Shown here piece after piece: positions 13,785-30,792 of a DNA stretch of 42,287 nucleotides. The translations under genes were made by a program, and so were the position numbers. Position 1 is the first letter of the stretch. Each line of letters starts with the position of its first letter. The stretch is from an uncultured Nitrososphaerales archaeon (lineage in GTDB: Archaea; Thermoproteota; Nitrososphaeria; Nitrososphaerales; Nitrososphaeraceae), in assembly GCA_963695855.1 (NCBI GenBank), contig CAVOHZ010000005.1, forward strand, positions 1-42,287, read 5' to 3'. Under the pieces are notes generated by a model. The model saw nothing but the letters and a program-made list of their open reading frames with translations, was not told the origin of the DNA and did no database searches.

Positions 13785-13899
13785 ACATTTAGCTTAAAAA
13801 TAATACTGAACCTTTCTATGCTTTTGCTGCTCTTACTCAATATAATGAGAATTATTTAAGTAATATATTCTACTTCCTTATAGAATCCATCTAGTTCAC

Positions 13900-14002
13900 G
13901 GCCGTGTTAAGTTAAGGAAAATAGACGGATAGAATTGAAAAAATATTGTATAATAGAATTATATAATACGACTATTACTTTACTCCTTAAGTTAACGGGG
14001 CC
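13900..14002. mobile_element. 103-bp MITE with IS6-like terminal inverted repeats
   Basis: Left ggccgtgttaagttaagga versus reverse-complemented right ggccccgttaacttaagga (16/19). Both resemble the ends of the IS6 remnant at 14457-15182; no TSD seen. Confidence 0.6.
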
Positions 14003-15182: not shown

Positions 15183-15497
15183 TGAGAAAGTAGAAAAGAA
15201 AATATTCTAGCAATAATTAAATGAATTTTTTCAACTAAATAGTATTTGCTAAAAAAAATTTTTATATTTTAGACAAAAGTCAATTTGATTTATTTTGGTA
15301 TAGAAAAAGGAAGAAATAGTAGTGATATTGAAAGATGGTAGTAGAAGAAGTTAAAAAACTACTTCCTTTAATATTATTACCATTTCGATTATATGGACTA
15401 GGTTATGGTTGAATATGGTTGAATTTTTCAATTCCCAAACCACTGAATAATTATTTATATGATAGAGACCTAGGCTTTTACAAATTATTGTAAAGAA

Positions 15498-15875
15498 TTA
15501 GAGTTTGTCATGATATAAAAAAGATTTTAATACACTTTCATTCACGGTATCAATTAAGTTAGATATCGATACACGTTTTTTGAGCATATTAAATTTATAA
15601 TTACATTTCAATTCAGCAAAATCAGACATTATGATTACATTTAGTTTTGGATTTATTTCTAAGAGTTTGGTTCCCATAAATAACCCATTTGCATTGGGCA
15701 TTTTATCATCAATAATTAATAATGCATATTTATCTGAATTTTCCTTTATATGTTCATATGCCAAAAGCGGATCAATGAAACTAGAAACATCGTAGCCACT
15801 TATCTTTAAAGCCTCGCTAAATATATTTAATAAATCTGGATCCTCATCGATTATGGCTATGGATTTAGTAATCAT
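15498..15875 (-). CDS. Stand-alone response regulator receiver domain
   Basis: IIDED acidic pocket, IIDDKMP phospho-Asp, MS and K positions. Confidence 0.88.
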   Translation of the reverse strand: MITKSIAIIDEDPDLLNIFSEALKISGYDVSSFIDPLLAYEHIKENSDKYALLIIDDKMPNANGLFMGTKLLEINPKLNVIIMSDFAELKCNYKFNMLKKRVSISNLIDTVNESVLKSFLYHDKL

Positions 15876-16146
15876 AATAATATAGATTAAATGTAAGAAA
15901 TCTATTTAAGTATGATTTGTATTCCCTTTTTTGAAAATTTTGTTGCTTATATATACTTTTAATCGATCAATCAAACGAAAGAATCTAGGTAGGTCATCAT
16001 TGTTGTTGTCATAGTCTGGAGGAATAATTATAATTTTCTTCCAACCAAATTCTGTTTGTCTGTTTCTACTACGTTAGTTCAAGCTATGAAAATTGTCTAA
16101 TTAAATTCTCTTCAAGTATTAAATAAAATATGAAGTAGTAAATTCT

Positions 16147-16833
16147 ATGAATTCTAATAATAATATTGAATGGAATGATGTTATTAAAAAGGAAGCAAGA
16201 GGTATTAATGATGAGGATTTAGGTGAAGTAGAAGAAGTTCAAGGTAACTATATACTTGTACAAAAAGGAATGATTAACAGAGAAAAGTTTTACATTCCAA
16301 AAGATCAAGCCGAAAGTTATGATGGAGCTGTATTAAGATTTAGATTTTCTGAGCAGGATTTAAGTCAATTTCAGCGTGAACCACCAACTATATATGATGA
16401 GAACAGTATGCAAGAACAAGAAACAAGTCAGGCTACAAAAACTGAAACTGATCAAGAAGAAAATATACCATTAACAGAAGAAAGATTAGATGTCTCTCAA
16501 AGGATAGAAGAAAATCAAGCAACAATTACTAAAAAACCAAGCGAAGAAACTAAAACAGTAGAAGTTCCTTTAACACAAGAAGAAGTAGGTATTGAGAGAC
16601 CTACAAGTAGCGATGATGGTCGTGGTAGTAATGAAACGGAAGCACAAAGTCCTCTTATACAATCACTTCAAGAAATAAAAATACCATTAAAGAGAGAGGA
16701 AGCCAAAGTTACAAAAAAACCATATGTTAAAGAAGTTGCAGCAGTAAAAAAGAAGGCTAAAACAAAGAAAAAAAAAGTAACTAAAGATGTAACATCCGAA
16801 GACCTAGATACATCAAATATAGCTAAAAAATAA
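16147..16833 (+). CDS. PRC-barrel-like plus DUF2382 (YsnF/AvaK) domain protein
   Basis: DEDLGEVEEV...KFYIPK N-domain; IPLTEERLDV, VEVPLTQEEV and IPLKREEAKVTKKPYVKE motifs. Confidence 0.85.
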   Translation: MNSNNNIEWNDVIKKEARGINDEDLGEVEEVQGNYILVQKGMINREKFYIPKDQAESYDGAVLRFRFSEQDLSQFQREPPTIYDENSMQEQETSQATKTETDQEENIPLTEERLDVSQRIEENQATITKKPSEETKTVEVPLTQEEVGIERPTSSDDGRGSNETEAQSPLIQSLQEIKIPLKREEAKVTKKPYVKEVAAVKKKAKTKKKKVTKDVTSEDLDTSNIAKK

Positions 16834-16856
16834 TAAGCCAAATAAAATTTTCTATT

Positions 16857-17414
16857 TCATTTATTCAATTTTCTAGTCCAATTTACAAGATTTTGAAGTA
16901 ATTGTCTTACAAACATTTGAGTATTTTCATCGACTAAATTTCCATTTGCATCAAATTTATTCTGGGCAAAGGGTACTATGACTTCTGGTCCGTTAATAGG
17001 ATACATATTTAGATATACAAATATCTGTCTAAGATGATACTGAGCCCTAGCACCTCCTAACATACCAACAGAAGCACTCATTATAGCAACTGGTTTTTCA
17101 TTAAATGGATTATCTCCATATGGCCGTGTGGCACAATCAATTGCGTTTTTTAGAACACCTGGTACTGAATAGTTATATTCTGGAGTTGCAATTAGAATCG
17201 CATCTGCTTCTCTTATTTTTGATTTAAACTCTTTTACCTTCTCTGGCATATTATTCTCAGTATCTTGATTAAATGCAGGAATACCACCAATATCAAATAT
17301 TTCTAGATTTGCATCCTCTGGAATTAAATTTGCTGCCGCACGTAGAAGAGATTTATTATAAGAATGTACTCTGAGACTGCCTGCAAAACCAAGAATTTTT
17401 AACTTCTTATCCAT
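16857..17414 (-). CDS. NADPH-dependent FMN reductase (ChrR/SsuE family)
   Basis: GSLRVHSYN, TPEYNYSVPGVLKNAID and GGARAQYHLRQ motifs. Confidence 0.95.
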   Translation of the reverse strand: MDKKLKILGFAGSLRVHSYNKSLLRAAANLIPEDANLEIFDIGGIPAFNQDTENNMPEKVKEFKSKIREADAILIATPEYNYSVPGVLKNAIDCATRPYGDNPFNEKPVAIMSASVGMLGGARAQYHLRQIFVYLNMYPINGPEVIVPFAQNKFDANGNLVDENTQMFVRQLLQNLVNWTRKLNK

Positions 17415-17496
17415 ATCTTTAAAATTAATACACCTTGTTTTTAGGTTTTTAAAGTCTATTTTATGATGTAATTCTCAATATAACTGACGTAGAGTA

Positions 17497-17520
17497 GTCG
17501 AGTCCCACTGCCGGCGCTCA
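17497..17520 (+). other. Degenerate tRNA 3'-end-like fragment (possible att scar)
   Basis: GC-rich gtcgagtcccactgccggcg in AT-rich intergenic DNA resembles TCGAGTCCC plus an acceptor strand. Confidence 0.35.
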
Positions 17521-17876
17521 ACTCGTGCAGTCATACAAGAAGATATTTGATTTAAAGATTGTAAGTCGAGTATATTATATTTTAAATATATAAATTTATA
17601 AAATAGAATTGATATATTTAATTACTTTAGCGGATTACAAACATGACTGATTCATCCATTCTGTCTGTCATCTTAATAGATTATCTCTCCGCAGTAGAAA
17701 GGATAAAATAAATTATTCACTTTCTTCGTTCAGGGATTGGATTACAACTTGCCAATACGAAGTCGGTAAATGTAACTGCGATAAAGTGGTTTATCTTTAT
17801 TGATAAAAGGAAATATTTACAGGTATATTGATCTAAATAAATAAATCAAATAACTAATCTTTCTTGTAATAATCTG

Positions 17877-18527
17877 TTACTCTAGCGATATTTTGTTATA
17901 AACCCTATTATTATCTAATTTAATTTTACCATTTGGATACTTTATTGTAGGTATTTTAACGAGTATATATCGTTGGTCAAATTTTATAGATACTGTGGAA
18001 GAACAAATGATCAATGGTATAAATATTTGACTATTAGAATTTACTAAATCTAAAGCTATATTCAATATATCAGAATAAGTTAAACAGAATTCATTTGGTT
18101 CAAATCCACGACACCAAGCATTAAGATCATGCATTATTGATGCTGTATAATATCGCCTTGCAGCTTCTCCTGTGGCAATATCATGGTTAACGTTGTTGTG
18201 TAAATAATCCCACCATTCTGTAAAACCATAAATATAATCGACTGAAGATTCTTTTGATAAATATTCCCAAAATTCATTTAGTCTTTCAGAAGAGCCTTCC
18301 CATGTATTATTTTCTATCACATAGCTTACAAGTACTGCAGAATTTATTGCACCAATAGATGTACCAGCGACAATGTCTACAATTGGTTTATTTTTAAATC
18401 CTCTTTCCTTATCACTTTTGGTGACCATTTCATGTAATGCCTGATACACCCCTGCTTCATACGCTCCAAGCGAACCGCCACCTTGTAGGATTAATACTCT
18501 TTGGAAGTTCGGTACCCTTTCTTGCAT
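17877..18527 (-). pseudogene. Patatin-like phospholipase, N-terminal part only
   Basis: QGGGSLGAYEAG and GTSIG are present and the DGG motif is absent; sequence after ARRYY (about 18145) looks unrelated. Confidence 0.8.
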
Positions 18528-18935
18528 ATGATATAAACATGTCCGGAGAGATCCTATTATATTTGACCTTCCAATTAGAATAACATTTTCTTTCAGATTA
18601 TGCCTGGTAGGTTAACAATTATGTAAGTGCAGAGATTGACAATTATAGTAAACTACCATTTGTCTATTTAAAAATTATTTCTGATAGATAGAGCTTTAGG
18701 TGAGTGTATAATACAATGATAAATATGGTAGAAGGATAAATGACATCTTACAGATAGGAGTAACGAATATGATTACACAACTGTTAACAAAGCAACTGCT
18801 AAGGCTCAAACCAAAATTAGTCGAGCGTGATTCATACATCAAGAATAATCAGTTATTGACGATTTTAGAGTAGCGGAACTAAATATAAAATAGGGACTAT
18901 TTGAATTAGATTAACTTACTTCTTCCATATCTAAT

Positions 18936-19616
18936 TTAAATAGAAATAGAAAAATTATTTGATATCCATTTTCTGGCAACAAATATATCTTCCTGAATTA
19001 AATTGTGACTTGATTGCTGCCACTTTAATACAATATTTGCATTAGCTTTTTGAAATAGAGTATAAAGATTTTCTGTTTCAACTCTAGAGACTATAGGATC
19101 ATTTACTCCTGCGGCTAATAGTACTTTTTTGCCTGAAAGGTCTGGTAAAGGATTAGGAATTAAGGGAACCATTGCTCTGAAAAGAATTGCACCTTGAAAT
19201 ACGTCTGGATGCAGAAGTAGTATACTGGTAGCAATATTAGCTCCATTTGAAAATCCTACTGCTATTGTATGTTTTAAATCAAACTTATAATGTAAAGAAC
19301 ATTTTTTAATGAAATCAGCAAGCTCATGAGTTCTAAATTTAAGATCTTCTATATCAAATACTCCTTCAGCCAGTCTTCTAAAGAAGCGAGGCATACCATT
19401 TTCCAATACTTTTCCTCTGGAACTTAATATTGATGCATTAGGTTCAATTTCCTTTCCAAGGAAAATAAGATCTTCTTCATTTCCACCTGTTCCATGTAAT
19501 AGTACGAGTGTTAAATTACTATTTATTTCATCATATTCTCTTTTGTTATTGGAAGTATTAGTAGAAGAAGATTTAATAAATATATGATGAAATCCAAAAT
19601 CATTCGATTTAATCAT
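18936..19616 (-). CDS. Phospholipase/carboxylesterase (MhqD-like alpha/beta hydrolase)
   Basis: LLHGTGGNE, GKVLENGMPRFFRR, GFSNGAN, DPIV and SHNL motifs; lies downstream of a ring-cleaving dioxygenase as in Bacillus mhqED. Confidence 0.92.
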   Translation of the reverse strand: MIKSNDFGFHHIFIKSSSTNTSNNKREYDEINSNLTLVLLHGTGGNEEDLIFLGKEIEPNASILSSRGKVLENGMPRFFRRLAEGVFDIEDLKFRTHELADFIKKCSLHYKFDLKHTIAVGFSNGANIATSILLLHPDVFQGAILFRAMVPLIPNPLPDLSGKKVLLAAGVNDPIVSRVETENLYTLFQKANANIVLKWQQSSHNLIQEDIFVARKWISNNFSISI

Positions 19617-19642
19617 TTTCTTGTTGCTCCTGTTTATTCTCT

Positions 19643-20635
19643 TTATTTTGATTTATCTTTATTATCATAGTGAGGTAATTCTATCTTTGTTAATACCCTT
19701 TCTAATCTTCCTCTCATGGGTTCAAGCCATTGTGGTAACATCAGTATTTTTCCTAAATCTTGTACTTTTTGATCTACTGTAAATCCTGGTGGATCTGTAG
19801 CAATTTCAAATAAAACTCCTCCAGGTTCTCTAAAATATACTGAATGAAAGTATGTTCTATCAATTACTGGCGTCGGATTTAGTCCTATTTTTATAATATT
19901 TTTTCTAATTGATATTTGAGATTCATCCGATGATGTTCTAAAAGCTATATGATGAACTGTTCCTATTCCAATTCTTCCATAAGGAGTATAAGGCAAACAG
20001 AGAACATCTAATATTTTTGCACCAGTATTAGATTGTGAATCTTCTATTTGAAAACGAAAACGGTTACCTTCATTTTCTATCATTTTGTATCCCATATCTT
20101 TTAATATTTCTGAAGTACGCTCATATCCTTCTTCTGATAAACTTACAGAATAAAATCCCCTTATACCGTTTTCATATGATATTGGACCATCTTTCCAAAA
20201 TCTTTCATCATTTTCCTTTGCTGATGAATGAGCGACTAATTCTAGTTCGAGACCATCAGGATCATAGAGTTTTATTACTTGCTCTTCCTTGTCAAAACGT
20301 TTTGTAGGTCCTTCAAAACCAATATCATTATTTTTTAGACGATCTTTCCAAAAATCAACAGAGTTTGGAGGTATTAAAAAAGATGTTGTTATAGCTTGAC
20401 CTGTTCCTCTATAACCTTTTGGAGAATCAGGCCAAGGAAAGAAAGTAAGAATTGTTCCAGGATGCCCTATTTCATCTCCATAATATATATGGTATGTTGT
20501 TGGATCATCAAAATTAACGGTTAATTTGACCAATCGTAATCCTAATAACTTTGTATAAAAATCAATATTTTTTTGTGGATCGCTACAAATTGCAGTAACA
20601 TGATGAATTCCTAATACATTATTTGTACTATTCAT
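19643..20635 (-). CDS. Ring-cleaving dioxygenase / glyoxalase (MhqA/MhqE/MhqO family)
   Basis: GIHHVTAI, TVNFDDPTTYH, GTVHHIAFR and DRTYFHSVYFREPGGVLFEIATD motifs. Confidence 0.95.
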   Translation of the reverse strand: MNSTNNVLGIHHVTAICSDPQKNIDFYTKLLGLRLVKLTVNFDDPTTYHIYYGDEIGHPGTILTFFPWPDSPKGYRGTGQAITTSFLIPPNSVDFWKDRLKNNDIGFEGPTKRFDKEEQVIKLYDPDGLELELVAHSSAKENDERFWKDGPISYENGIRGFYSVSLSEEGYERTSEILKDMGYKMIENEGNRFRFQIEDSQSNTGAKILDVLCLPYTPYGRIGIGTVHHIAFRTSSDESQISIRKNIIKIGLNPTPVIDRTYFHSVYFREPGGVLFEIATDPPGFTVDQKVQDLGKILMLPQWLEPMRGRLERVLTKIELPHYDNKDKSK

Positions 20636-20659
20636 CTAATTCTTCTTATACCTCTTTTT

Positions 20660-22312
20660 TTATAAAGACTCTGCTATAAAGTGGGAAACCATAGGTGGAT
20701 TCTTATCATTATGGAAAGATCGAACTTTATCTTCTATTTCTCTATCAGCTACAGTAAATCTTTCATGCTGTCGAAGATGTTCTTCCCAAGATTCTAATAT
20801 AAAAGTTTCAATGTACTCACTAGGATTTTCTCCATCATAATACAAGGCCCAATGAATGGCTCCATCTCTTTTTCTAATTCTACTCCATTCTTTCATAATT
20901 GTTTCAAATTCCTTTTTATTTATAGGATCAATTTTATACTTTACTTCTATCATTACAGGTTTTTCTTCTTTTCCAGATTCAAATATAACATTTGGAATTG
21001 ACCAGTGAGCATAAGATGTCCTATCAATTTCACCTTTTTTTATCAACCGATATCTTGTAAAAGATATTAAGCCTATCACTAGACCAACGGCTGATAAAAT
21101 CAATGCAGTACGTACATCAGAATATATTGAAACTTGTCCCCATATGAGACTTCCAACAGCTATTCCACCTTGAAACACTGCTTGATAAGTAGCTAGTAAT
21201 CTCGTACCTACCCAATTAGGACCTGCTTTAAAAGCAGAAAAATTAAAGCTGGATAAAAGAGTAATCCATGCTATTCCACTTCCAATCATTACTAGAAAGA
21301 TTTGAAAGAAATTATCAAGTTGTGAAAGCAAAATCATAGTTATTGCAAATAATATACTTGCAGCCACAACTAGCCGATCAATAGAGATTATTTGTATTAT
21401 TTTTGGAAGCATAATTGTACCACCAATTATAGCTCCTATGCCTAAAGCTCCTAAAAGTAATCCATATTCAGCAGAGCCAAATCCCAAAGTATTTCTTACA
21501 AGAGAAGGCAATAATGCAAATAATGCACTTCCAAAAATTGTAAAGGCTGTAGCACGTATTAGAACAGATTGAACATCAGGAGAATATTTTAGATATCTAA
21601 TTCCAGCTCTGATAGCTCCAGTGATATGTTCAGGAGGTAGAGTAGTATTTTGTTCTTGATGGTCACTACTAGACCATCTTCTTAATACAATAATAATCGA
21701 TATAAAAGTTAGAGAATTAATTAAAAAAACTGCCCAAGGTCCGCTTAAAGCAATTATAAAACCACCAACAGTTGGTCCCACTGCTCTTCCTATATTAATT
21801 GCAACTCCACCAAGAGTAATAGTTGATTGAGATTCTTCTTTAGAGACCATCTCTAAAGAAAGGCGTATCAATAATGGCGTACTTAATGCTGCTCCTAGTC
21901 CTAAGGCAAATGTTAATTGTATTAACAATAACGGAGTAGTCATGTTAAACAATGTAACAATAGCAAGTGCAAATGCTATTGCTAGCATATAGCCTTGACT
22001 AATCATAAGAAGCTTATGACGATTAAGAACATCTCCAAGAGCTCCACCAGGTAACGCCATAACAACAATCGCCAAGCTAGCTGCAGCTGGTATCAAAGCA
22101 ACGAGAAACGCTGAATCAGAAAGGGAAGTCATAAGCCACATAGCTCCAGTATCATGCATTGATGAGCCAATATTTGAAACGACAGTTGCAATCCATAATG
22201 CCCTATAAATGGGGTGATGTATTATGGGTTCCCAACCAGATCTACTTACTTCCTTTTTTTTCTGTTCTTTATTATTATTATTTTCTTTTTGAGAACTTGT
22301 ATCATCTTTCAT
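20660..22312 (-). CDS. MFS transporter (MFS_3/DUF894 type) with C-terminal soluble domain
   Basis: About 12 hydrophobic segments; C-terminal RKRDGAIHW and ESWEEHLRQHER. Confidence 0.92.
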   Translation of the reverse strand: MKDDTSSQKENNNNKEQKKKEVSRSGWEPIIHHPIYRALWIATVVSNIGSSMHDTGAMWLMTSLSDSAFLVALIPAAASLAIVVMALPGGALGDVLNRHKLLMISQGYMLAIAFALAIVTLFNMTTPLLLIQLTFALGLGAALSTPLLIRLSLEMVSKEESQSTITLGGVAINIGRAVGPTVGGFIIALSGPWAVFLINSLTFISIIIVLRRWSSSDHQEQNTTLPPEHITGAIRAGIRYLKYSPDVQSVLIRATAFTIFGSALFALLPSLVRNTLGFGSAEYGLLLGALGIGAIIGGTIMLPKIIQIISIDRLVVAASILFAITMILLSQLDNFFQIFLVMIGSGIAWITLLSSFNFSAFKAGPNWVGTRLLATYQAVFQGGIAVGSLIWGQVSIYSDVRTALILSAVGLVIGLISFTRYRLIKKGEIDRTSYAHWSIPNVIFESGKEEKPVMIEVKYKIDPINKKEFETIMKEWSRIRKRDGAIHWALYYDGENPSEYIETFILESWEEHLRQHERFTVADREIEDKVRSFHNDKNPPMVSHFIAESL

Positions 22313-22364
22313 AAAGAATTGTTACCTTGTTTGTTATTCGTTCTATGGTTTGAAATTGCTACTT

Positions 22365-24320
22365 CTAAAAAGAGAAAAAATCATCACAACATGCACACAT
22401 ATAATTACTATATTGAATTTTTACATTTTTATTGTCTACACTAATTCCTTTGGAATCTATTATTGATGAATTCTGATTTTCATTATTTTTATCTTTATCT
22501 TTAACAAGATGGTTGTTATTGTTATGATCTTTATTAGAATTTGCAGTTATTTGTTTTTGTCGTTGTAATAATGATGGATTATTGCTATTTTGAATTTGAT
22601 TTTGATTGTTTCTTGTGCTATAATATCCACCAAAAATAGAAACAGGAGACCATGAAGGAATAACATCTAGAGATGCAAGTGAAAGATTTTGAAATTCTTC
22701 TTTTGCATATACTATTCTCCCACCCACTATAGTAAGAACAGAATCAATTTCTTTAATTTGTTCTTCTTCAACAGAGAAATAATCATCACTCAATACAGCA
22801 AGATCTGCAAATTTTCCTATTTCAATTGAACCCTTTTTCTCTTCTTCATTTGAAAACCATGCACTACCAAGCGTGTACAATCTAAGTGCTTCCATTCTAT
22901 CAAGACAATTATTTTTAGACCTTAATGTTGTGCCACCAACTGATTTTCCTGTTACTAGCCAATAAAGCGAAATCCATGGATTATAAGTAGATACTCTAGT
23001 TGCATCTGTTCCTGCCCCTAAAGGAACGCCCATTTCAATTATTTTCTTTATAGGTGGAGAGTTTTCTGAGACTTCTTTCCCATATCTTTCAATAAAGTAT
23101 TCACCTTGAAATGCAAGTCTGTCTTGTATTGCTATTCCTCCACCTAATTTTTTTACTCTTTTGATATTATCTTCGGATATTGTTTCTGCATGATCAAAAA
23201 ACCATCTTAAACCGTTAAAGGGAATTTCATTATTTACTTCTTCATAGACATTTAAAAATCGTGTAATTGATTCATTGTATGTAGCATGTATCCTAAAAGG
23301 CCATCTATTCTTTACTAGAACTTTAACAACTTCCTTTAGTTCTGACTGCATTTGTTCTGCCAAGTCTGGACGTGGTTCCAATATATTTTCATAGTCAGCT
23401 GCTGAGAAGACTAACATTTCGCCAGCTCCATTCATACGATAAAAATCATTTCCTTCACCAGGCTTTACCATTTTTATCCAGTTTGTAAAGTCTTCTAATT
23501 CTTTTTTTGGTCTCTGGGTAAAGAGATTGTACGCAATACGAACGGTAAGGAGACCTTCTTTTGCTAAATCACTTATTACCTTGTAATCGTCAGGATAATT
23601 TTGAAATCCTCCTCCTGCATCAATAGCACTAGTGACACCAAAACGATTGAGTTCATACATGAATTGCCTTGTAGAATTGATTTGTTCATCAGAAGATAGT
23701 TTTGGACCTTTGGCTAATGTTTGATAAAGTATTGTTGCTGCAGGTTTTGCAGTTATCAAGCCTGTTAGATCACCAGTTTCATCATGCTCAAATTCTGCAT
23801 CAGGTGGATTTGGTGTATCTTTATTATATCCAGTAGCTTCAATTGCTTTTTTATTAATCATCGCACAATGATAAAGATGCAAAATAAATGCTGGTATACT
23901 TCCAGTATTTCTTTCAATTTCCTCTATAGTAGGCATTCTTTTCTCTTTGAATTGAAGCTCAGACCAGCCTCCAACTACTCTAATCCAATGTGGATTGGGA
24001 GTATGTTGTGATTGCTCATTAATTCTATTCAAGGCTTCAGATAGAGTAGGTATACCATCCCATCTTAATTCTAGATTATAGTTTAAGCCACCGCGTATAA
24101 TGTGAAGATGAGAATCATTTAAGCCTGGAATAACTGTTCGTCCATTTAGATCAATAACTTTTGTATTATCTCCCTTGTAAGAAAGGCTATCATCATTATT
24201 ACCTACAGCAATAAAAATACCATCTTTTATAGCTACAGAAGATACAAAATTTTGATTATTATTTATTGTCGCTATACGACCGTTTATAAGAATAAGACCT
24301 GCCTCTTTAGTCATATCCAC
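22365..24320 (-). CDS. Amidohydrolase_3 family metal-dependent hydrolase (YtcJ-like)
   Basis: PGLNDSHLH, RIHAT, FFDHAE, GTDATR and GKFADLAVL motifs. Confidence 0.93.
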   Translation of the reverse strand: MDMTKEAGLILINGRIATINNNQNFVSSVAIKDGIFIAVGNNDDSLSYKGDNTKVIDLNGRTVIPGLNDSHLHIIRGGLNYNLELRWDGIPTLSEALNRINEQSQHTPNPHWIRVVGGWSELQFKEKRMPTIEEIERNTGSIPAFILHLYHCAMINKKAIEATGYNKDTPNPPDAEFEHDETGDLTGLITAKPAATILYQTLAKGPKLSSDEQINSTRQFMYELNRFGVTSAIDAGGGFQNYPDDYKVISDLAKEGLLTVRIAYNLFTQRPKKELEDFTNWIKMVKPGEGNDFYRMNGAGEMLVFSAADYENILEPRPDLAEQMQSELKEVVKVLVKNRWPFRIHATYNESITRFLNVYEEVNNEIPFNGLRWFFDHAETISEDNIKRVKKLGGGIAIQDRLAFQGEYFIERYGKEVSENSPPIKKIIEMGVPLGAGTDATRVSTYNPWISLYWLVTGKSVGGTTLRSKNNCLDRMEALRLYTLGSAWFSNEEEKKGSIEIGKFADLAVLSDDYFSVEEEQIKEIDSVLTIVGGRIVYAKEEFQNLSLASLDVIPSWSPVSIFGGYYSTRNNQNQIQNSNNPSLLQRQKQITANSNKDHNNNNHLVKDKDKNNENQNSSIIDSKGISVDNKNVKIQYSNYMCACCDDFFSF

Positions 24321-24429
24321 TCATCTTGACAAGTTTTAATGATAATTTAGGGAAAATGCCGAAAAAATAGTGAATATATGTATTTATTTGATTTTTAGTA
24401 TTATTTATTAATGATTCCATTATTATTAT

Positions 24430-25092
24430 TTAACCTTCTCTTGCATGCTCACCTAGCATAGCTCTTGCATATTCTACTCCAAGTCCATATGTACCTGCAT
24501 CTTCTCTTACTACTTTCATTACTGCATCATATGTGTCTGTCCTGGCCCAGTCGCGTTGTAATTCTAATAGGAATTGTAGCCAAGTCATAGGTACCGCTCC
24601 TGCTTGAATTAATCTCTCTATTGCCATGTCATGTGCAGTAATTGATGTTCCACCACATGCATCAGCGATAACATAAATTTCATATCCTGCCTCCATGGCT
24701 TGAATAGCTGGCATTACAATACAAACTTCTGTCCATAGTCCTGCTAAAACTAGTTTTTTCCTTCCAATTTTCTCTACCTCTAAGACTACGTTTCGATCTT
24801 CCCAGCAGTTCATAGTCGTTCTATCTATCATTTGTTTATCTGGATACACTTTTTTTATCTGAGGGAACATAGGACCAGAAAAACTTTTTTCTGCCACTGT
24901 AGTTAAAATAGTTGGAACATTGAATATCTTTGCTGCCTTTGCAAGGCCTTCAGCATTATTAATTAGAGTCTGTCCATCTATGGATTTTACACCAAAGGCC
25001 ATTTGCGGCTGAAAATCAATCATTATTAACGTACAGTTGTCAGGGGTCAGTAAGCTATGAATTTTATTATTAACTAAGCTTTCGCTTGTCAT
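24430..25092 (-). CDS. ycaC: Isochorismatase-family cysteine hydrolase, YcaC type
   Basis: IDFQPQM (Asp), DRTTMNCWED, GLWTEVC (Cys) and ELQRDWAR motifs. Confidence 0.9.
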   Translation of the reverse strand: MTSESLVNNKIHSLLTPDNCTLIMIDFQPQMAFGVKSIDGQTLINNAEGLAKAAKIFNVPTILTTVAEKSFSGPMFPQIKKVYPDKQMIDRTTMNCWEDRNVVLEVEKIGRKKLVLAGLWTEVCIVMPAIQAMEAGYEIYVIADACGGTSITAHDMAIERLIQAGAVPMTWLQFLLELQRDWARTDTYDAVMKVVREDAGTYGLGVEYARAMLGEHAREG

Positions 25093-25742
25093 TAAATGAT
25101 ATTATGCAACATACATAAAAGGATTTTCTTAACCATTTATTAACATAACAGATCTATATTCATATATGAAATGATAGGTTGAAATGATTAGTGTTATAAA
25201 ATAAATTTTAAATTAATATTGTATTTTATTATCATCAATGTCTGAAATAGAAAGATCTGTAAAGCTAGTGAAATAGGTCAAGTAATAGGTAAAAAAATGG
25301 CTTTTATTAATATCAAAGACTCTCGCTCAAATTCATCTTTTCATTTTAGTGAATCAAAAAAATATTATCAGTAATAAGTAATAAAGTTTTATGTGAAAAA
25401 TGTAACAGTTAAAGCGAGAGACAACAGTCATAAAAATAACTCCAACGATAAATCTAATGAAATATTGGTTTTAAAGTGGATAGATTATAAAAGCAAAGAA
25501 CATAAAAAATAATTCTAACTAGTTTTCTATCACAATAATAAATTGTGACTATTATAAAAAATACTTTAGAACAACATTATAATACATGAAATTTTATGAC
25601 AAATGACATATTACTCGATTTGTGATCAATAAACTTTCAAATTGAGATATATTAAGGAAGTCGAAGTTATAAATACTAAACAGGCATTCCAAAAAATTAT
25701 CATTAAGGATTATTTTTGGATTATACCTGCAATTAAATAGTG

Positions 25743-25810
25743 CCACTTTATATTAAGGGTTCAAATCCCACTGGCCCCATTACAAACCTGTGTCTTTATT
25801 TAGTCCCACT
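25743..25810 (+). other. Integrase-proximal att-like site H (tRNA 3'-end-like)
   Basis: ccactttatattaagggttcaaatcccactggccccatta contains the T-loop consensus GGTTCAAATCC and an acceptor-like strand, but only 3 bp of T-stem. It lies about 50 bp before the integrase ATG and is homologous to sites D and F. Confidence 0.75.
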
Positions 25811-25831
25811 CAATATAAGATATTACAATAA

Positions 25832-27112
25832 ATGACAATCAATAGCTCTTTTATTGAAGCTGTGTCAAAAGAAGAACATAATAAGGAAATGACTCCCTAT
25901 TTGATGTTCAAATATGCTACTAAGACAGAGCTAACAAGAAAATACTATGAAAGAAGGTTGAAAAGATTTTTCGACTTTATCGAATTTGATACTCGGGAAA
26001 ATGATTTTGAAACTAGATGTAACACATTTGCAGAAAAAGCAAAAAGTAACACAAATTGGACATTAAGTCAAGTCATACGATTTTTGCAATATCAAAAAGA
26101 AAGAGTTGATAGTAAAGAGATAACTAGTGCAACTCTAAAGAACTTTGTCAAGTCAATAAAGGTATTTTGTGAGATGTCTGATATTTCTATTCCTTGGAAA
26201 AAGATTACAAGGGGACTACCAAATGCTAGACAGTCAGCAAATGATTGAGCTCCAACAATAGAAGAGATTCTTAAACTGATACAATATCCAGATAGAAGAA
26301 TAAAACCAATTGTCTACACAATGGTATCATCTGGGATAAGATTAGGAGCTTGGGATTATCTAAAATGGAAACATATCATTCCAATTAATGATGAAAAAGG
26401 AGAGATAGTAGCAGCCAAGATAATTGTGTATGCCGGCGAGGTTGATGAATATTATTGCTTCATTACTGAAGAAGCGTATAGCTCACTATTAGATTGGATG
26501 AAATTCAGAGAAGAATATGGTGAAAAGATTAGCGGAGAATCTTGGTTGATGAGATACATCTGGCAAACAACTAATGTAAACTACGGGGCTAAATGGGGAT
26601 TAGCAACATGTCCTAAAAAATTGAATAGTTATGCTATTAAGAGAATATTAGAGCGGGGATTATGGTCCCAGGGTTTAAGAGAAACACTTGAAAAAGGAGA
26701 AAAGAGACACGAATACAAAGCAGCTCATGGTTTTCGTAAATTCTATAAAACTAGAGCAGAACAAGTTATGCGTCCTCTGAATGTCGAGATAACACTTGGT
26801 CATAATATTGGACTTTCGGGGTCATACTACAAACCAACTGGGAAAGAAATTTTAGAAGATTATCTAAAAGCAACTGGTTTACTTACAATAAATACCAATC
26901 AAAAAGTTCTAGAGAAAGAGATTACTAAACTAAAAGAAAAAAGTCAAGATAATGATTACGTTATAAGAGCCAAATTATATGAGAAAGATGAACAAATTAA
27001 GGAACTTAAGAAGAGCGATAAAGTTAAAGAAGATGCATTAGCTCATGTATCAGATCAGTTGATGATATTAACTGAAAGAATTCAAGAGTTGGAGAGAAAA
27101 GAATCAAAATAG
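25832..27112 (+). pseudogene. Tyrosine recombinase/integrase with one in-frame TGA (26246-26248) and C-terminal coiled coil
   Basis: ORFs 25832-26248 and 26321-27112 are in one frame ([35 protein letters not shown]). Catalytic R (GIR), HxxR (HGFR), H (LGH) and Y (SYY) are intact. Confidence 0.92.
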
Positions 27113-27433
27113 ATCAGGATTAAAAGCGGGTTCGGTGGTATCCGTCATGCTAGCACTCTAATAAAAGAATCCTAAGTAGGGTAAATAAAAGAAGTTTATA
27201 AATTTTATCTATAGTTGTTATTGTAGATTTATTTTTAAATTCTGATATCTTCTCATGAGATAATAATACCTTTATTTTTTGAAAATACATTTGAGAATTT
27301 CAATCCTAGTAGAGGCTCAGAATGCTCGCTTCGAATCCAACTGATTGATTTAGTCATAAGTTAAAATTCGACTATTATCAAGAAATTAACTTTTTGATAT
27401 TTTTAGTTCCAAAATTCGGTTTATAGTTTTCAT

Positions 27434-27660
27434 CTCGCAATCCTATAATAGTTCTATTAAAACTGATCCCATATAGACAAATATCCAGCAGTAGCAAACT
27501 TCCAATCCTATAATAGTTCGTTTAAAACTATATTTCGAATTTACATTTGCGTAGCTGAATCTTGCTTTAAATCCTATAATAGTTCGATTAAAACTACAGT
27601 TATGACCTTAAACTCTATGTCTTTAACCTCCTTTCAATCCAATAATAGTTCGATTAAAAC
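27434..27660 (-). CRISPR. Orphan mini-CRISPR array, 4 repeats and 3 spacers
   Basis: 30-bp repeats at 27434, 27499, 27565 and 27631 (plus-strand consensus CTTTCAATCCTATAATAGTTCGATTAAAAC); unique spacers of 35, 36 and 36 bp. The minus-strand repeat ends in ATTGAAAG. Confidence 0.9.
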
Positions 27661-27717
27661 TTGAACACGATAAATTACGATTATTACAATTACAATCCTT
27701 ATCTAATGACTCGTTAA

Positions 27718-27930
27718 TTATTTATTTGGATCTTTAAAATCCTGTACAAATTCAAACTTGTTCAAGTCATAACTCATAAATTTGCTATAACAGTTAATAC
27801 ATAATTTTCTCTTATTCGCTACATCAATTTTTCCTTCGTTAAATCCCTTCCTGCAGTACCTATTGTCACATGTAAACACTTCATTATAATTTACCCAAAT
27901 ATCGTCAATTGACTCTGGATACATCGTCAT
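27718..27930 (-). CDS. Small Cys4 zinc-finger-like protein
   Basis: 70 aa with CDNRYC...CINC, ATG start, AT-rich TATA-like sequence about 30 bp upstream. Confidence 0.65.
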   Translation of the reverse strand: MTMYPESIDDIWVNYNEVFTCDNRYCRKGFNEGKIDVANKRKLCINCYSKFMSYDLNKFEFVQDFKDPNK

Positions 27931-28007
27931 ATTATAATAAATTTATCAGACCAATTAAAAAAGTTTATCTTAGAATTTTTTAATCCTAACCCAGTTAGCT
28001 AATAATG

Positions 28008-28610
28008 TCAGCAGTAAATTCTATAATTACTTTTGGAGCTATAGCACTTATCGGTTATATTCTTTATAATAAATTCTTTCCAGGTCAGGGTATTGACCAG
28101 ATACTTCAGGGTATAGGCTCTTATTCCTTTTGGATTAATTTTCCTAGATAATGTCACACTATCTGTTTGAGTTGGATACCTATTTCTATCCCTGGTTATT
28201 AAAAGTTCTCTTTCACTATTGTTATAGTCTCTCACTATTATCTTGTTTTTATGAATTATTTTTATAACTTCTTTATAGTGTACATGACTATCGTGGCCAT
28301 CACGGTTTCTGTGGTAAGGACCATCCTTTGGTAGTGGTTTGCAGTTTTTGTCTTTTGAAGGATCACATGGGTGGGGTTGTTGGTAGTGTTGTTCCTGGCT
28401 CTGTCTCATCTGCTCCTCAGGCAACACCAAAAGGACCAAAGAATTCAGAAGCACTTACATCTTCTCCAGCAGTTGTATCAGCAGCAGGAGAAGTAAATCC
28501 ATTATTGTTAATGATTGTATATGCTCTATCTGTATCTGTTGCTTTAATAAGTGTCACAATTCTATCAGTTAAAGTAATTACTACTAATATACAAGATAAA
28601 ATAATTTATT
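28008..28610 (-). pseudogene. Degraded secreted low-complexity protein, 5' end abutting IS481
   Basis: Hydrophobic ILSCILVVITL start, Pro/Thr-rich segment and CDPSKDKNC spread across frames with stops. Confidence 0.4.
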
Positions 28611-28618
28611 ATACTAAT

Positions 28619-29667
28619 TGTTGTACTTACACAGATAGGTAACAGATTCACTTACCAACATGGGTAACACTTTTTATCTGCTTATTTGTTTTGATATTCT
28701 TACAACTATTTAATCTTCCTTTCATAAGAAACATTTCAGATGGTGTGTGACCATTGATTCCACCATGTTCTCTTGTTTCATTGTATGCTTTGACAAACAT
28801 GGAATATCTTCTCTTTCCTTCTTCTCTGTTGGAAATATTTTCTATTGCCAAAAATTCATTTTTGACTATCTTGTTATATGCTTCAATTTTACCCTGTAGT
28901 TGTGGATATCTAGCAGGTATGGATTTATCTTTAATGTTGTTACGTTGTAGAAAACGTCTGAATATTTTGGATGTAAGCTGTTTACCATTATCATGCAGTA
29001 CCTTGAGAGGTTTACCATTCTCTACTATGTAGTCTTCCAGTACCTGTAGTACATCTACACTTCGTTTTCTTTCAGACCAGTCACTTGTTACCTTTCTTGA
29101 ACAGTCATCTTCACAACTGATAAAATAGTTCTTTTGAGTAGAATTCTCAAGGTAAAATGGTCCTAAAATGTCCATCTGTACCATTTGATTGGGTTTTTCC
29201 ATTGCAAATCTTTTGTATTTTCTATTTCTGATCTTGCATCTTAGTATGTTCAGTCCATGTCTTTTCAGTATCTTGTAGATGGTTTTTGTACTGAAGGAGA
29301 TATCATTCAGTCGTCTTAACCTGAACCTTATGCGATTGTAACCAAATCTTTTTGTTACACGTAAATCCAATATTTCCTGTTCTATCTCATTTGTTACTTT
29401 TCCAGGTTGTATATTATATGGTTTCCTACTTTTATCCCGTAAACCGTCTATTCCATTCTCAAGGTACCTGTTCTTCCATTTGTAGTATGACTTTCTAGAT
29501 GTATGATATCTATTACAGATATTAGTTACAGTATCTCCAGTCGACTCTTTCTCATGAATTAAATTAAATTTTGTTTGTAATTCTATTTTTTATACACTTC
29601 CTAGCAGATTAGGAAGTGTTACCTATCTCGGTAAATGAAATTGTAACCTATGTTGGTAAGTACAACA
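28619..29667 (-). mobile_element. IS481-family insertion sequence (1049 bp)
   Basis: TGT...ACA ends: tgttgtacttacacagataggtaaca versus tgttgtacttaccaacataggttaca. Extra subterminal repeats near 28651 and 29616; flanks actaat/tctaat (5/6, TSD-like). Confidence 0.92.
28648..29586 (-). CDS. IS481 DDE transposase (HTH plus rve); canonical start codon missing
   Basis: QMDILGP, HDNG and GKIEAY carry the DDE triad. The frame stays open upstream of 29370 through the HTH (SRKSYYKWKNRYLENGIDGL) to an ATA codon at about 29586. Confidence 0.85.
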   Translation of the reverse strand: MELQTKFNLIHEKESTGDTVTNICNRYHTSRKSYYKWKNRYLENGIDGLRDKSRKPYNIQPGKVTNEIEQEILDLRVTKRFGYNRIRFRLRRLNDISFSTKTIYKILKRHGLNILRCKIRNRKYKRFAMEKPNQMVQMDILGPFYLENSTQKNYFISCEDDCSRKVTSDWSERKRSVDVLQVLEDYIVENGKPLKVLHDNGKQLTSKIFRRFLQRNNIKDKSIPARYPQLQGKIEAYNKIVKNEFLAIENISNREEGKRRYSMFVKAYNETREHGGINGHTPSEMFLMKGRLNSCKNIKTNKQIKSVTHVGK

Positions 29668-29811
29668 TCTAATATCTGCCAAAATTAAGTGCTATAATAT
29701 TGGTTATTATGGCTATTACATTTGTATTAGGTTTAGTTTAATAACAATATATATACACTTACTTTTTTATAGTAAATTTGAAATCTTTGGTTAGTGTATA
29801 TGTTATTTAAT

Positions 29812-30792
29812 ATGAGTTCATTAGAAGCAAAAATTAAACGTAAACCTTATACAGGAAAAGATCCAATGTCACCAGAAGAAATTCTCTCACATGAACCTAC
29901 TGCTGTAAAACGAGATCCACATGATCAAATAATTGCGAAAGGAGGAAAGACAGGAACTGATACAGAAGAAGCAAAAGAAATGTACAGAAAAAAAGGTATG
30001 ACAAAAGTATATCCATCACAAGCAGAAATTAAACGTAAACCTTATACAGGAAAAGATCCAATGTCACCAGAAGAAATTCTCTCACATGAACCTACTGCTG
30101 TAAAACGAGATCCACATGATCAAATAATTGCGAAAGGAGGAAAGACAGGAACTGATACAGAAGAAGCAAAAGAAATGTACAGAAAAAAAGGTATGACAAA
30201 AGTATATCCATCACAAGCAGAAATTAAACGTAAACCTTATACAGGAAAAGATCCAATGTCACCAGAAGAAATTCTCTCACATGAACCTACTGCTGTAAAA
30301 CGAGATCCACATGATCAAATAATTGCGAAAGGAGGAAAGACAGGAACTGATACAGAAGAAGCAAAAGAAATGTACAGAAAAAAAGGTATGACAAAAGTAT
30401 ATCCATCACAAGCAGAAATTAAACGTAAACCTTATACAGGAAAAGATCCAATGTCACCAGAAGAAATTCTCTCACATGAACCTACTGCTGTAAAACGAGA
30501 TCCACATGATCAAATAATTGCGAAAGGAGGAAAGACAGGAACTGATACAGAAGAAGCAAAAGAAATGTACAGAAAAAAAGGTATGACAAAAGTATATCCA
30601 TCACAAGCAGAAATTAAACGTAAACCTTATACAGGAAAAGATCCAATGTCACCAGAAGAAATTCTCTCACATGAACCTACTGCTGTAAAACGAGATCCAC
30701 ATGATCAAATAATTGCGAAAGGAGGAAAGACAGGAACTGATACAGAAGAAGCAAAAGAAATGTACAGAAAAAAAGGTATGACAAAAGTATAG
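29812..30792 (+). CDS. Hydrophilic tandem-repeat protein (5 x 65 aa, last copy slightly short)
   Basis: Unit KRKPYTGKDPMSPEEILSHEPTAVKRDPHDQIIAKGGKTGTDTEEAKEMYRKKGMTKVYPSQAEI; ATG at 29812 preferred over GTG at 29794. Confidence 0.8.
   Translation: MSSLEAKIKRKPYTGKDPMSPEEILSHEPTAVKRDPHDQIIAKGGKTGTDTEEAKEMYRKKGMTKVYPSQAEIKRKPYTGKDPMSPEEILSHEPTAVKRDPHDQIIAKGGKTGTDTEEAKEMYRKKGMTKVYPSQAEIKRKPYTGKDPMSPEEILSHEPTAVKRDPHDQIIAKGGKTGTDTEEAKEMYRKKGMTKVYPSQAEIKRKPYTGKDPMSPEEILSHEPTAVKRDPHDQIIAKGGKTGTDTEEAKEMYRKKGMTKVYPSQAEIKRKPYTGKDPMSPEEILSHEPTAVKRDPHDQIIAKGGKTGTDTEEAKEMYRKKGMTKV
29831..30791 (+). repeat. 195-bp tandem repeat, about 4.9 copies
   Basis: aaacgtaaaccttat starts at 29836, 30031, 30226, 30421 and 30616; no differences found by eye. 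Confidence 0.97.

What the first reader, a model, noticed from the sequence alone, without database searches (positions are those of the whole stretch)
27434..27660. Orphan mini-CRISPR array immediately downstream of a tyrosine integrase
Seen: four 30-bp repeats at 65-66-bp spacing with unique spacers tgatcccatatagacaaatatccagcagtagcaaa, tatatttcgaatttacatttgcgtagctgaatcttg and tacagttatgaccttaaactctatgtctttaacctc. The array is about 320 bp after the integrase stop, and no cas gene lies within 27 kb to the left or 14 kb to the right. Known: repeats ending ATTGAAAN supply the 8-nt handle in type I-B/III systems, and mini-arrays on viruses and integrative elements can borrow host Cas against competing elements. 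Inference: this is an att-integrase-mini-array module of an AOA integrative element, transcribed on the minus strand; the leftmost repeat is the most diverged, as expected for the trailer end.
Basis: partly seen in the sequence, partly recalled or inferred. Interest (0 to 1): 0.8.

Follow-up and report, generated by a model that had tools for sequence, protein, structure and literature searches.

The report
Decaying orphan CRISPR mini-array, cas-less archaeon
The four repeats are a real CRISPR mini-array, but it sits in an ammonia-oxidising archaeon that has no cas genes, looks like a decaying leftover that has been copied around the genome, and lies beside a broken integrase gene that does not travel with it.

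Summary
Observation confirmed: four 30-nt repeats (27434, 27499, 27565, 27631) with three unique 35-36-nt spacers, read on the minus strand. The repeat belongs to a family that forms long arrays beside complete type I-B cas operons in related genera.

- **No Cas to borrow.** The 99.87%-complete genome has no cas gene. Eight family scans and a tblastn with two relatives' I-B operons found none. Cas1 was over cut-off in 0 of 25 genomes of the genus. Two relatives keep only cas fragments.
- **Signs of decay.** All four repeats differ from each other, three of them in the 8-nt handle.
- **The array is not unique.** A second copy with the same three spacers lies on contig C6 without any integrase. 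A second pair (C2/C4) has other spacers.
- **A shared flank.** All four arrays lie about 113 nt from a tRNA-Thr(CGU) 3' end or its remnant. Two other species have an array beside the same tRNA; in one the flanking genes are housekeeping genes.
- **The integrase is an incidental neighbour.** It belongs to the tyrosine-recombinase family. However, it is a pseudogene (in-frame TGA) and uses a different tRNA-derived att.

No protospacer was found. Verdict: orphan type I-B relic, ordinary; interest low to moderate.

The parts
27631..27660 (-). Repeat 1 (leader-proximal), 1 mismatch to the consensus
27595..27630 (-). Spacer 1 (36 nt). Absent from the metagenome variant L072.
27565..27594 (-). Repeat 2, 1 mismatch, in the 8-nt handle (ATTTAAAG)
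27529..27564 (-). Spacer 2 (36 nt)
27499..27528 (-). Repeat 3, 2 mismatches, one of them in the handle (ATTGGAAG)
27464..27498 (-). Spacer 3 (35 nt; 36 nt in the C6 copy and in L072)
27434..27463 (-). Repeat 4 (trailer end), 3 mismatches, two of them in the handle (ATTGCGAG)
27320..27433 (-). Trailer of about 113 nt, about 70% identical to the trailer of the C2/C4 arrays. The C4 trailer is 96% identical to that of species G014.
27300..27319 (+). Degenerate remnant of the 3' end of tRNA-Thr(CGU). It is att-like and marks the point where homology to the C2/C4 arrays begins.
27127..27299 (.). Segment shared with C3 461277-461485 (94%) and with L072. Its left edge at 27127 joins three different left contexts.
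25832..27112 (+). Pseudogene of a tyrosine-recombinase family, with an in-frame TGA at 26246-26248. Not part of the array module.
25744..25788 (+). tRNA-derived att-like repeat of the integrase family. It is not from tRNA-Thr, and the genome holds many copies.
27718..27930 (-). ORF70, a small CxxC...CxxC protein that ends 57 nt upstream of repeat 1. It is conserved in C6 (two copies) and in G019, and its gene is also present in L072 (cut by the contig end).
28008..28454 (-). ORF148, no family match. It is duplicated together with the array on C6.
28618..29670 (-). IS element with an rve transposase (ORF 28648-29370). Inserted in the C5 copy only, not in C6.

Best explanation
The feature is a genuine type I-B-family CRISPR mini-array of 4 repeats and 3 spacers, read on the minus strand. 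It is orphaned and decaying.

The genus once had type I-B cas genes and lost them; broken cas6 and cas1 pieces survive in two relatives. Small arrays were left behind, and the ancestral one sits just downstream of, and convergent with, tRNA-Thr(CGU) in the core chromosome.

The window's array is a diverged paralog or xenolog of that locus. Its homology to the ancestral locus starts inside the tRNA's 3' end, which is an integration (att) hot spot. I infer that it was separated from the tRNA, moved and duplicated (C5 and C6) by recombination among mobile-element remnants.

The neighbouring integrase is a nonsense-mutated member of an unrelated element family that targets a different tRNA. It ended up next to the array through one such junction, at 27126/27127.

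Without Cas6, Cascade, Cas3 or Cas1-Cas2 in the cell, the array cannot currently be processed, used for interference or extended. That it was ever active, and how it moved, are inferences. That it is orphan, multi-copy, linked to tRNA-Thr and not linked to the integrase is shown.
For: 1. Repeat family and type.
- The pattern with up to 3 mismatches gives long arrays in G027 (91 hits), G044 (98), G047 (25) and G059 (21). All four have Cas1 (E about 1e-97) and Cas6.
- In G027 the operon is cas6, an unnamed 666-aa gene, cas7 (I-B Cst2/DevR), cas5b, cas3, cas4 and cas1b, followed by the array in the same orientation.

2. No cas genes.
- The genome is 99.87% complete in 11 contigs.
- Cas1, Cas6_C, RAMPs, DevR, Cas2, Cmr2 and the Cas5 domain each gave 0 hits. 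cas3_core gave only sub-threshold helicases.
- A tblastn of 34 ORFs from two relatives' I-B operons found no cas homolog.
- In the genus, Cas1 was over cut-off in 0 of 25 genomes. Cas6_C was found in 1 of 25 (G019), where it is split by an in-frame stop and directly abuts 2 repeats. G012 has a 52-aa Cas1-like frame with a stop.

3. Decay.
- All 4 repeats differ from each other, and 3 of the 4 carry a change in the last 8 nt.
- Between the C5 and C6 copies, the repeats differ at 3 of 120 positions. The trailer differs at 3 of 113 and other non-coding flank at 19 of 399, so the repeats show no sign of constraint.

4. Multi-copy and tRNA-Thr link.
- Arrays lie at C5, C6 (same 3 spacers), C2 and C4 (spacers A, B, A, a tandem duplication).
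- The alignment shows all four lie about 113 nt from a tRNA-Thr(CGU) 3' end or its remnant.
- G014 has tRNA-Thr, a 96%-identical trailer and a 7-repeat array between housekeeping genes. G020 also has the array beside that tRNA.

5. Integrase not linked.

6. No target found for any spacer.
Against: - Arrays at the orthologous tRNA-Thr locus share no spacer between G000, G014 and G020, although the flanks are 95% identical between G000 and G014. That implies spacer turnover after these species split, which needs Cas1-Cas2 at some point. This fits a recently active or trans-served array better than an old fossil.
- The metagenome variant L072 lacks exactly the leader-proximal unit (repeat plus spacer 1) and has a perfect consensus first repeat. 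This is what polarised acquisition of spacer 1 in the C5/C6 lineage would look like, although a deletion explains it too.
- The genome also keeps three arrays of 9-13 nearly uniform repeats of a second family, which does not look like long neglect.
- Assemblies can miss mobile cas-bearing elements, and contig C4 ends inside an array.
- The counts behind the 'no constraint' argument are small.
- No RNA data could be examined.
Confidence: 0.67

Rival explanations
1. This is a live, mobile-element-borne mini-array served in trans. The cassette (tRNA-Thr att, trailer, array) rides on integrative elements. It becomes functional whenever the cell also hosts a mobile type I-B cas module, and then targets competing elements. 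Such cas-bearing integrated elements are described in Nitrososphaera.
For: - The array is embedded in mobile-element debris: an integrase pseudogene, att-like repeats, an IS, and an 18.2-kb insertion relative to C3.
- Homology between the array families starts exactly inside the tRNA-Thr 3' end. The left edge at 27127 joins three different contexts: C5, C3 and L072.
- Spacers differ between species at the orthologous locus.
- L072 differs by one leader-end unit.
- PMC6563490 (passages read) reports two thaumarchaeal integrated elements with stand-alone arrays served by host I-B cas, and two elements carrying full I-B systems.
Against: - No cas genes occur in this genome, and effectively none in the 25 genomes of the genus.
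- The repeats are individually mutated, including in the handle.
- No conserved leader was seen among 7 arrays.
- None of the 3 spacers hits anything beyond the arrays themselves: not in the own genome, in 300 other genomes of the order, in the fetched loci of relatives, or as exact words of spacer 1 (IMG/VR) and spacers 2 and 3 (metagenome contigs). The one metagenome hit is another copy of the array.
- The repeat was not found in IMG/VR contigs.
- No intact element with two att ends around the array was demonstrated.
- The ancestral tRNA-Thr array in G014 lies among housekeeping genes.
Confidence: 0.17
2. The repeats have been co-opted for a role outside CRISPR immunity. They might act as a structured 3' UTR or terminator region of the conserved small zinc-ribbon ORF70, which ends 57 nt upstream, or as a recombination site.
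For: - ORF70 is identical in C5 and C6 (0 differences in 213 nt), while the array and its flanks differ.
- The pairing of array and ORF70 also occurs in soil metagenome contigs (record 10).
- Homology to the array-less ORF70 copy on C6 (90866-91322) starts exactly at the repeat edge, 27661.
Against: - ORF70 exists without an array at C6 90866-91322, and the C2/C4/G014 arrays exist without ORF70.
- No terminator-like site was found in 27100-28100, and there is no Rfam match.
- The repeats carry no conservation beyond the neutral level.
- There is no direct evidence for any such role.
Confidence: 0.05
3. The C5 and C6 copies are not paralogs. They are strain variants of one locus that the assembler kept apart, so the 'duplication' is an assembly effect.
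For: - C5 is a short contig (42 kb), and much of it has 80-99% identical counterparts elsewhere in the genome.
- Contamination is estimated at 1.61%.
- Soil contigs carry the C6-type variant.
Against: - The flanks differ. C5 has the integrase cassette and C3-like sequence on the left and an IS on the right, whereas C6 has other sequence to the left of 111123.
- This rival would change only the copy number. It would not change the nature of the array, its orphan status or the tRNA-Thr link.
Confidence: 0.08

Closest known systems
Orphan (cas-less) CRISPR arrays left in genomes after loss of cas genes
   Same: Regular repeat-spacer architecture from a cas-associated repeat family, with no cas genes in the genome. 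The repeats are degenerating, spacer blocks are duplicated by recombination, and cas pseudogene fragments survive in relatives.
   Different: The array family occurs as several very small copies, each tied to a tRNA-Thr 3' end. The arrays persist across a genus in which none of the 25 genomes searched has Cas1, yet their spacer content differs between species.
Stand-alone CRISPR arrays on thaumarchaeal integrated elements (NCAV2-E1 and NitIsl-E1; PMC6563490, passages read)
   Same: Same phylum. The repeats are related to type I-B, the arrays have no adjacent cas genes, and integrases and mobile elements are nearby.
   Different: Those arrays are large (96 and 69 spacers). Their repeats are identical to a host array that has functional I-B cas genes, so use in trans is plausible. 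Here the array has 3 spacers, mutated repeats and no host cas genes, and it is not inside a demonstrable intact element.
Virus-borne mini-CRISPR arrays of Sulfolobales viruses SPV1 and SPV2 (PMC6858448, abstract and passages read)
   Same: Very small arrays without cas genes.
   Different: Those arrays have 1-2 spacers and a host-like promoter-bearing leader. Their repeats match the host's active system, and their spacers hit closely related viruses. Here no conserved leader, no host system and no target were found.
Type I-B CRISPR-Cas loci of related genera (for example G027:C29 and G047:C18)
   Same: The repeats match the window consensus at 27-28 of 30 positions, the unit length is about 66 nt, and the orientation is the same, ending in ATTGAAAG.
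   Different: Those arrays are long and uniform and directly follow cas6 through cas1 (and, presumably, cas2). The window's array has no cas genes and non-uniform repeats.

Membership tests
CRISPR array | At least 3 direct repeats of 23-47 nt at regular spacing, separated by unique spacers of similar length | tested here: met
   4 repeats of 30 nt and 3 spacers of 35-36 nt
CRISPR array | The repeat belongs to a family found next to cas operons | tested here: met
   Repeats differing at 2-3 of 30 positions form long arrays beside type I-B cas operons in G027, G044, G047 and G059
Functional CRISPR-Cas system | cas genes for processing, interference and adaptation present in the same genome | tested here: not met
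   Seven of eight family scans gave 0 hits, and cas3_core gave only sub-threshold helicases. A tblastn with two cognate I-B operons was negative. The genome is 99.87% complete.
Functional CRISPR-Cas system | A conserved leader with a promoter upstream of the first repeat | tested here: inconclusive
   The 150 nt upstream of 7 arrays of this repeat show no conserved block. Only 57 nt separate the ORF70 stop from repeat 1. Archaeal promoters were not modelled.
Functional CRISPR-Cas system | Spacers match foreign DNA (protospacers) | tested here: not met
   No match in the own genome, in 300 other genomes of the order (up to 3 mismatches), or in the fetched loci of relatives. Exact words of spacer 1 (IMG/VR) and spacer 2 (metagenome contigs) found nothing. 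The spacer 3 word found only another copy of the array. The public-collection scans were exact-match only.
Functional CRISPR-Cas system | The array is transcribed and processed into crRNAs | not testable with these tools
   No RNA run holding the stretch was listed
Mobile-element-borne mini-array used in trans | The array lies inside a delimited virus or integrative element | tested here: inconclusive
   The array is surrounded by mobile-element fragments and att-like breakpoints. No element with two ends enclosing the array was found. The ancestral copy in G014 lies between housekeeping genes.
Mobile-element-borne mini-array used in trans | The repeat is (nearly) identical to that of a cas-associated array of the host | tested here: not met
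   The host has no cas genes. Its longer arrays use another repeat that matches at only 19 of 30 positions by my own position-by-position comparison.
Tyrosine recombinase (neighbouring ORF) | Catalytic R...HxxR...Y residues and a match to PF00589 | tested here: met
   R7, H136, R139 and Y169 are invariant in 25 aligned sequences. 13 of the 25 members hit PF00589, best E 1.2e-10. The window protein alone gives no Pfam, NCBIfam or PDB sequence hit. A profile search against the PDB gave only XerA at E 0.73.
Tyrosine recombinase (neighbouring ORF) | An intact open reading frame | tested here: not met
   An in-frame TGA at 26246-26248 falls where the C8 paralog and the family consensus have Arg
Integrase-array module | The integrase and the array co-occur in paralogs and relatives | tested here: not met
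   The pairing occurs in 1 of 4 arrays in this genome. It occurs in 0 of 38 fetched loci of relatives (164 kb) and not in L072.

The most novel reading that the evidence does not exclude
The unit 'tRNA-Thr 3' end, 113-nt trailer, mini-array' is a cassette that tRNA-Thr-integrating elements captured from the chromosomal CRISPR locus by imprecise excision. It now travels with them. In a genus whose chromosomes carry no cas genes, type I-B cas modules would be transient mobile guests that reactivate these small arrays from time to time. That would explain why orthologous arrays in cas-less sister species hold entirely different spacers, and why an environmental variant differs by exactly one leader-end spacer.
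Probability: 0.13. Interest if true: 0.6.

Novelty: new member of a known kind. Interest (0 to 1): 0.3.

Why it matters
Taken as an 'integrase-borne weapon array', this would have been a new example of CRISPR use by mobile elements in soil ammonia oxidisers. The evidence points instead to a common outcome of cas loss: small orphan arrays that decay and get shuffled by mobile-element recombination.

Two things remain of some value.
- A whole genus of soil ammonia-oxidising archaea appears to lack cas genes yet keeps arrays at a conserved tRNA-Thr site. Spacer content there differs between species. This raises a testable question: are cas genes in this lineage supplied only transiently by mobile elements?
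- Spacer-based virus-host linking for these archaea should be treated with caution. The spacers may be old, duplicated by recombination, and not under selection.

Tried and rejected
- **RNA evidence.** The look-up of sequencing runs listed no RNA holder, so nothing can be said about expression.
- **Soil metagenome contigs.** Read laying on four soil metagenome DNA runs showed contigs with the C6-type variant of the array and no new spacers. No contig bridged 27112-27219. That absence is not evidence.
- **Exact-match scans.** In IMG/VR the repeat core, a degenerate repeat and a 25-mer of spacer 1 gave 0 hits. In metagenome contigs a 26-mer of spacer 2 gave 0 hits. A 27-mer of spacer 3 hit one contig, which is another copy of the array and not a protospacer. 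Diverged protospacers would be missed by these scans.
- **Anti-cas spacers.** I blasted 41 spacers of both repeat families against two relatives' I-B operons and the other fetched loci and found no hit. I therefore rejected the idea that these are anti-cas orphan arrays.
- **ORF70.** It has only 6 close homologs and no family, so it gives no clue.
- **Integrase by sequence alone.** Pfam, NCBIfam, PHROGs and the PDB gave nothing for the window protein. The profile search against the PDB was not significant. Membership rests on the homologs.
- **Leader comparison.** It gave no conserved block. The bacterial-type promoter and terminator scan is not informative for an archaeon.
- **Structure of the C2/C4 arrays.** I could not resolve whether they are two copies, or the occupied and empty states of one tRNA-Thr site. 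C4 ends inside the array and is 100% identical to C2 over 246 nt.
- **Not used or not available.** Supplementary files of the papers were not opened. The supplements of PMC6563490 may list repeat sequences that I could not compare.

Full report
**Observation.** The window is a whole 42,287-base contig (C5) of a 3.55-Mb, 11-contig, 99.87%-complete genome. The genome encodes archaeal AmoA, so the organism is an ammonia-oxidising archaeon. Four 30-nt direct repeats lie at 27434, 27499, 27565 and 27631. They are separated by three unique spacers of 35, 36 and 36 nt. On the minus strand the consensus is GTTTTAATCGAACTATTATAGGATTGAAAG. The copies carry 1, 1, 2 and 3 mismatches to it, going from the 27631 end to the 27434 end. 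The pattern hits the genome 14 times at up to 3 mismatches, and a reversed control hits 0 times.

**What kind of repeat it is.** I searched 61 genomes: G000 plus 60 relatives from its genus, family and order. The same repeat family (2-3 differences) forms long uniform arrays in G027 (91 hits), G044 (98), G047 (25) and G059 (21). All four also have Cas1 at E about 1e-97 and Cas6. In G027 the array directly follows an operon named by NCBIfam as cas6, an unnamed 666-aa gene, cas7 (I-B Cst2/DevR), cas5b, cas3, cas4 and cas1b. The repeat there has the same GTTT...GAAAG orientation. So the window's repeat is a type I-B-family repeat.

**Orphan status.**
- In G000, family scans for Cas1, Cas6_C, RAMPs, DevR/Cas7, Cas2, Cmr2/Cas10 and the Cas5 domain found nothing. 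cas3_core matched only sub-threshold helicases.
- A tblastn of all 34 ORFs of at least 100 aa from two relatives' I-B operon loci found no cas homolog. The only hits were translation artefacts across the arrays and one unrelated gene.
- In the 25 genomes of the genus, including G000, Cas1 was over cut-off in 0 of 25. G012 has a 52-aa frame scoring 18.9 bits with a stop codon.
- Cas6_C was found in 1 of 25, in G019. That gene is split by an in-frame stop into two ORFs and abuts two repeats.
- The repeat itself occurs in 12 of the 25, including G000. The loci I fetched hold arrays of 1-12 repeats, and G010 has 26 scattered hits.
- The genome also has three longer arrays of a second, related repeat: 12, at least 9, and 13 copies. 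Their flanks also lack cas genes.
- The picture is loss of cas genes across the genus with arrays left behind.

**The array is one of a family.** C5 27219-28617 is 98% identical to C6 111123-112522, including all three spacers. An IS with an rve transposase (28618-29670) interrupts only the C5 copy. A second pair, C2 123025-123252 and the end of C4, carries spacers A, B, A. That pattern is a tandem duplication of a 132-nt block, not adaptation. The last 246 nt of C4 are 100% identical to C2. Further degenerate solo or double repeats lie on C10 and C6.

**Signs of decay.** In C5 every repeat is different, and three of the four carry changes in the last 8 nt. Differences between the C5 and C6 copies are listed below.

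| Region | Differences |
|---|---|
| Repeats | 3 of 120 |
| Spacers | 1 of 108 |
| Trailer | 3 of 113 |
| ORF70 | 0 of 213 |
| ORF148 | 3 of 447 |
| Other non-coding flank | 19 of 399 |

The repeats show no sign of constraint, although the counts are small.

**The tRNA-Thr link.** On C4 an intact tRNA-Thr(CGU) at 134571-134645 is followed by 113 nt and then the trailer-end repeat, convergent with the tRNA. C2 keeps only the last 16 nt of the tRNA before the same trailer. C5 (27300-27319) and C6 keep a degenerate remnant. Homology between the C5/C6 and C2/C4 families is about 70% and starts inside that tRNA end.

In species G014 the same tRNA has a trailer 96% identical to the C4 trailer, followed by a 7-repeat array. 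The neighbouring genes are housekeeping-type: AIR-synthase-like and phosphoglucomutase on one side, and DUF790, CorA and a permease on the other. G020 also has the array beside this tRNA, but inverted. So the ancestral site is chromosomal, just downstream of a tRNA that serves as an integration hot spot. The window's copy is a diverged paralog or xenolog cut off at the att core. Its left edge at 27127 (GGGTTCGGTGG...) joins three different contexts, in C5, C3 and the metagenome contig L072. Relative to C3, C5 carries an 18.2-kb insertion at 8939-27126. The region is a patchwork made by recombination among mobile-element remnants.

**The integrase.**
- ORFs 25832-26248 and 26321-27112 are one 426-codon frame broken by a TGA at 26246-26248. 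The C8 paralog and the family consensus have Arg at that position.
- The window protein alone matches no Pfam, NCBIfam, PHROG (at useful E-values) or PDB sequence.
- A search restricted to longer proteins found 71 proteins of 462-586 aa. The last hit matched only 30% of the query and carries an NHL-repeat domain.
- In an alignment of 25 sequences, R7, H136, R139 and Y169 are invariant. 13 of the 25 hit PF00589.
- It is therefore a tyrosine-recombinase family pseudogene.
- Its own att-like sequence, at 25744-25788, comes from a different tRNA. That tRNA gene on C8 (91508-91603) is followed by an integrase homolog. The att-like sequence is scattered in many copies through the genome.
- The other copies of the integrase (C8 156 kb, C3 368 kb and others) are not near arrays.
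- No catalytic-domain homolog lies in 38 fetched loci of relatives (164 kb, most of them around their arrays) or in L072.
- A conserved att-integrase-array module is therefore not supported.

**Targets.** None of the three spacers matches anything beyond the arrays themselves.
- Own genome: no match.
- 300 other genomes of the order, at up to 3 mismatches: 1 of 301 genomes hit for each spacer, and that one is G000 itself.
- Fetched loci of relatives, including two cas operons: no match.
- Exact words: spacer 1 in IMG/VR found nothing, and spacer 2 in metagenome contigs found nothing. The one hit for spacer 3 is contig L072, which is another copy of the array.
- The repeat itself was not found in IMG/VR contigs.

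L072 is a variant of the module with three repeats. It lacks spacer 1 and has a perfect consensus first repeat.

**Points against a simple fossil.** Arrays at the orthologous tRNA-Thr site share no spacer among G000, G014 and G020. L072 differs by exactly the leader-end unit. Both observations would fit adaptation in the fairly recent past, or cas genes supplied by transient mobile elements. Such elements are described for Nitrososphaera (PMC6563490, passages read). Deletion and recombination can also explain both, and duplicated spacers in C2, G014 and the long arrays show that recombination acts on these arrays.

**Comparison with known systems.** This is an orphan type I-B array, which is a known kind.
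- It differs from the stand-alone arrays on thaumarchaeal integrated elements. Those have 96 and 69 spacers, and their repeat is identical to that of a host array with cas genes.
- It differs from the virus-borne mini-arrays of SPV1 and SPV2. Those have a leader, a host system and reciprocal targets (PMC6858448).
- I searched the paper library twice for such arrays in this group. I found no description of tRNA-Thr-linked mini-arrays in a cas-less genus of ammonia-oxidising archaea. One paper's table lists '2 CRISPR loci' for Ca. Nitrosocosmicus exaquare without detail (PMC5398378). I did not establish that the present genus is that one.

**Verdict.** The proposed functional module and the borrowing of host Cas are not supported. 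The best explanation is a decaying, duplicated orphan array (confidence about 0.67). The main rival is a trans-served array carried on mobile elements (about 0.17).

Noticed in passing
G000 C8:550856-551614, C8:583607-584187, C10:1185528-1186360 (outside the window): Three longer orphan arrays (12, at least 9, and 13 repeats) of a second repeat, CTTAGAAATTGACTAAAATAGGTTTGAAAC. The repeats are nearly uniform and several spacers are duplicated. No cas genes lie in the flanks.
   Followed up: partly
G000 C8 spacer at 551214 versus C3:303179-303213: One spacer of a long orphan array matches the organism's own genome (37-nt alignment, 92% identity). A self-target like this would be tolerated only without Cas.
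   Followed up: no
G019:C70 (L051) 4745-5524: A cas6 homolog (37% identical to the G027 cas6, E 2e-32) is split by an in-frame stop and directly followed by two repeats. It is a visible relic of a CRISPR-Cas locus in this genus.
   Followed up: partly
window 29825-30791: Five tandem copies of a 195-nt unit, 99% identical, inside ORF 29794-30792 (65-residue protein repeats). The C6 paralog aligns over fewer units.
   Followed up: no
window 28618-29670: An IS with an rve-type transposase is inserted in C5 but not in the C6 paralog. Six other full-length copies at 98.9% identity or more lie elsewhere in the genome.
   Followed up: partly
window 8939-27126: An 18.2-kb stretch is absent from the otherwise contiguous paralogous site C3 460222-461485. 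It includes a 6.6-kb block (18878-25465: MFS transporter, amidohydrolase, isochorismatase) that is 98% identical to C10 1408750-1415339, and it ends with the integrase pseudogene.
   Followed up: partly
window 25744-25788 (+) and 7447-7469 (-); many sites on C3, C8 and C10: A tRNA-derived att-like repeat (core GGGTTCAAATCCCACTGGCCCCA) and a related variant occur in dozens of copies. In the C8 paralog, inverted copies flank the integrase gene.
   Followed up: partly
G000 C10:1359282-1359434 (also C10:1666954-1667300 and C3:256289-256474): Odd arrays in which the 3' two-thirds of a CRISPR-like repeat recur at a 38-nt period together with a fixed 'spacer'. These are not a normal CRISPR architecture.
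   Followed up: no
L072 (metagenome contig) 1711-1873: An environmental variant of the window's module has three repeats, lacks spacer 1, has a perfect consensus first repeat, and has a third, different left context at the 27127-equivalent boundary.
   Followed up: yes
G000 C2:123055-123069 versus about 24 IS copies: The first 15 nt of spacer A of the C2/C4 array equal a sequence near the matched end of a multicopy IS (the family at C2 121940-122877). This may be chance multiplied by copy number.
   Followed up: no
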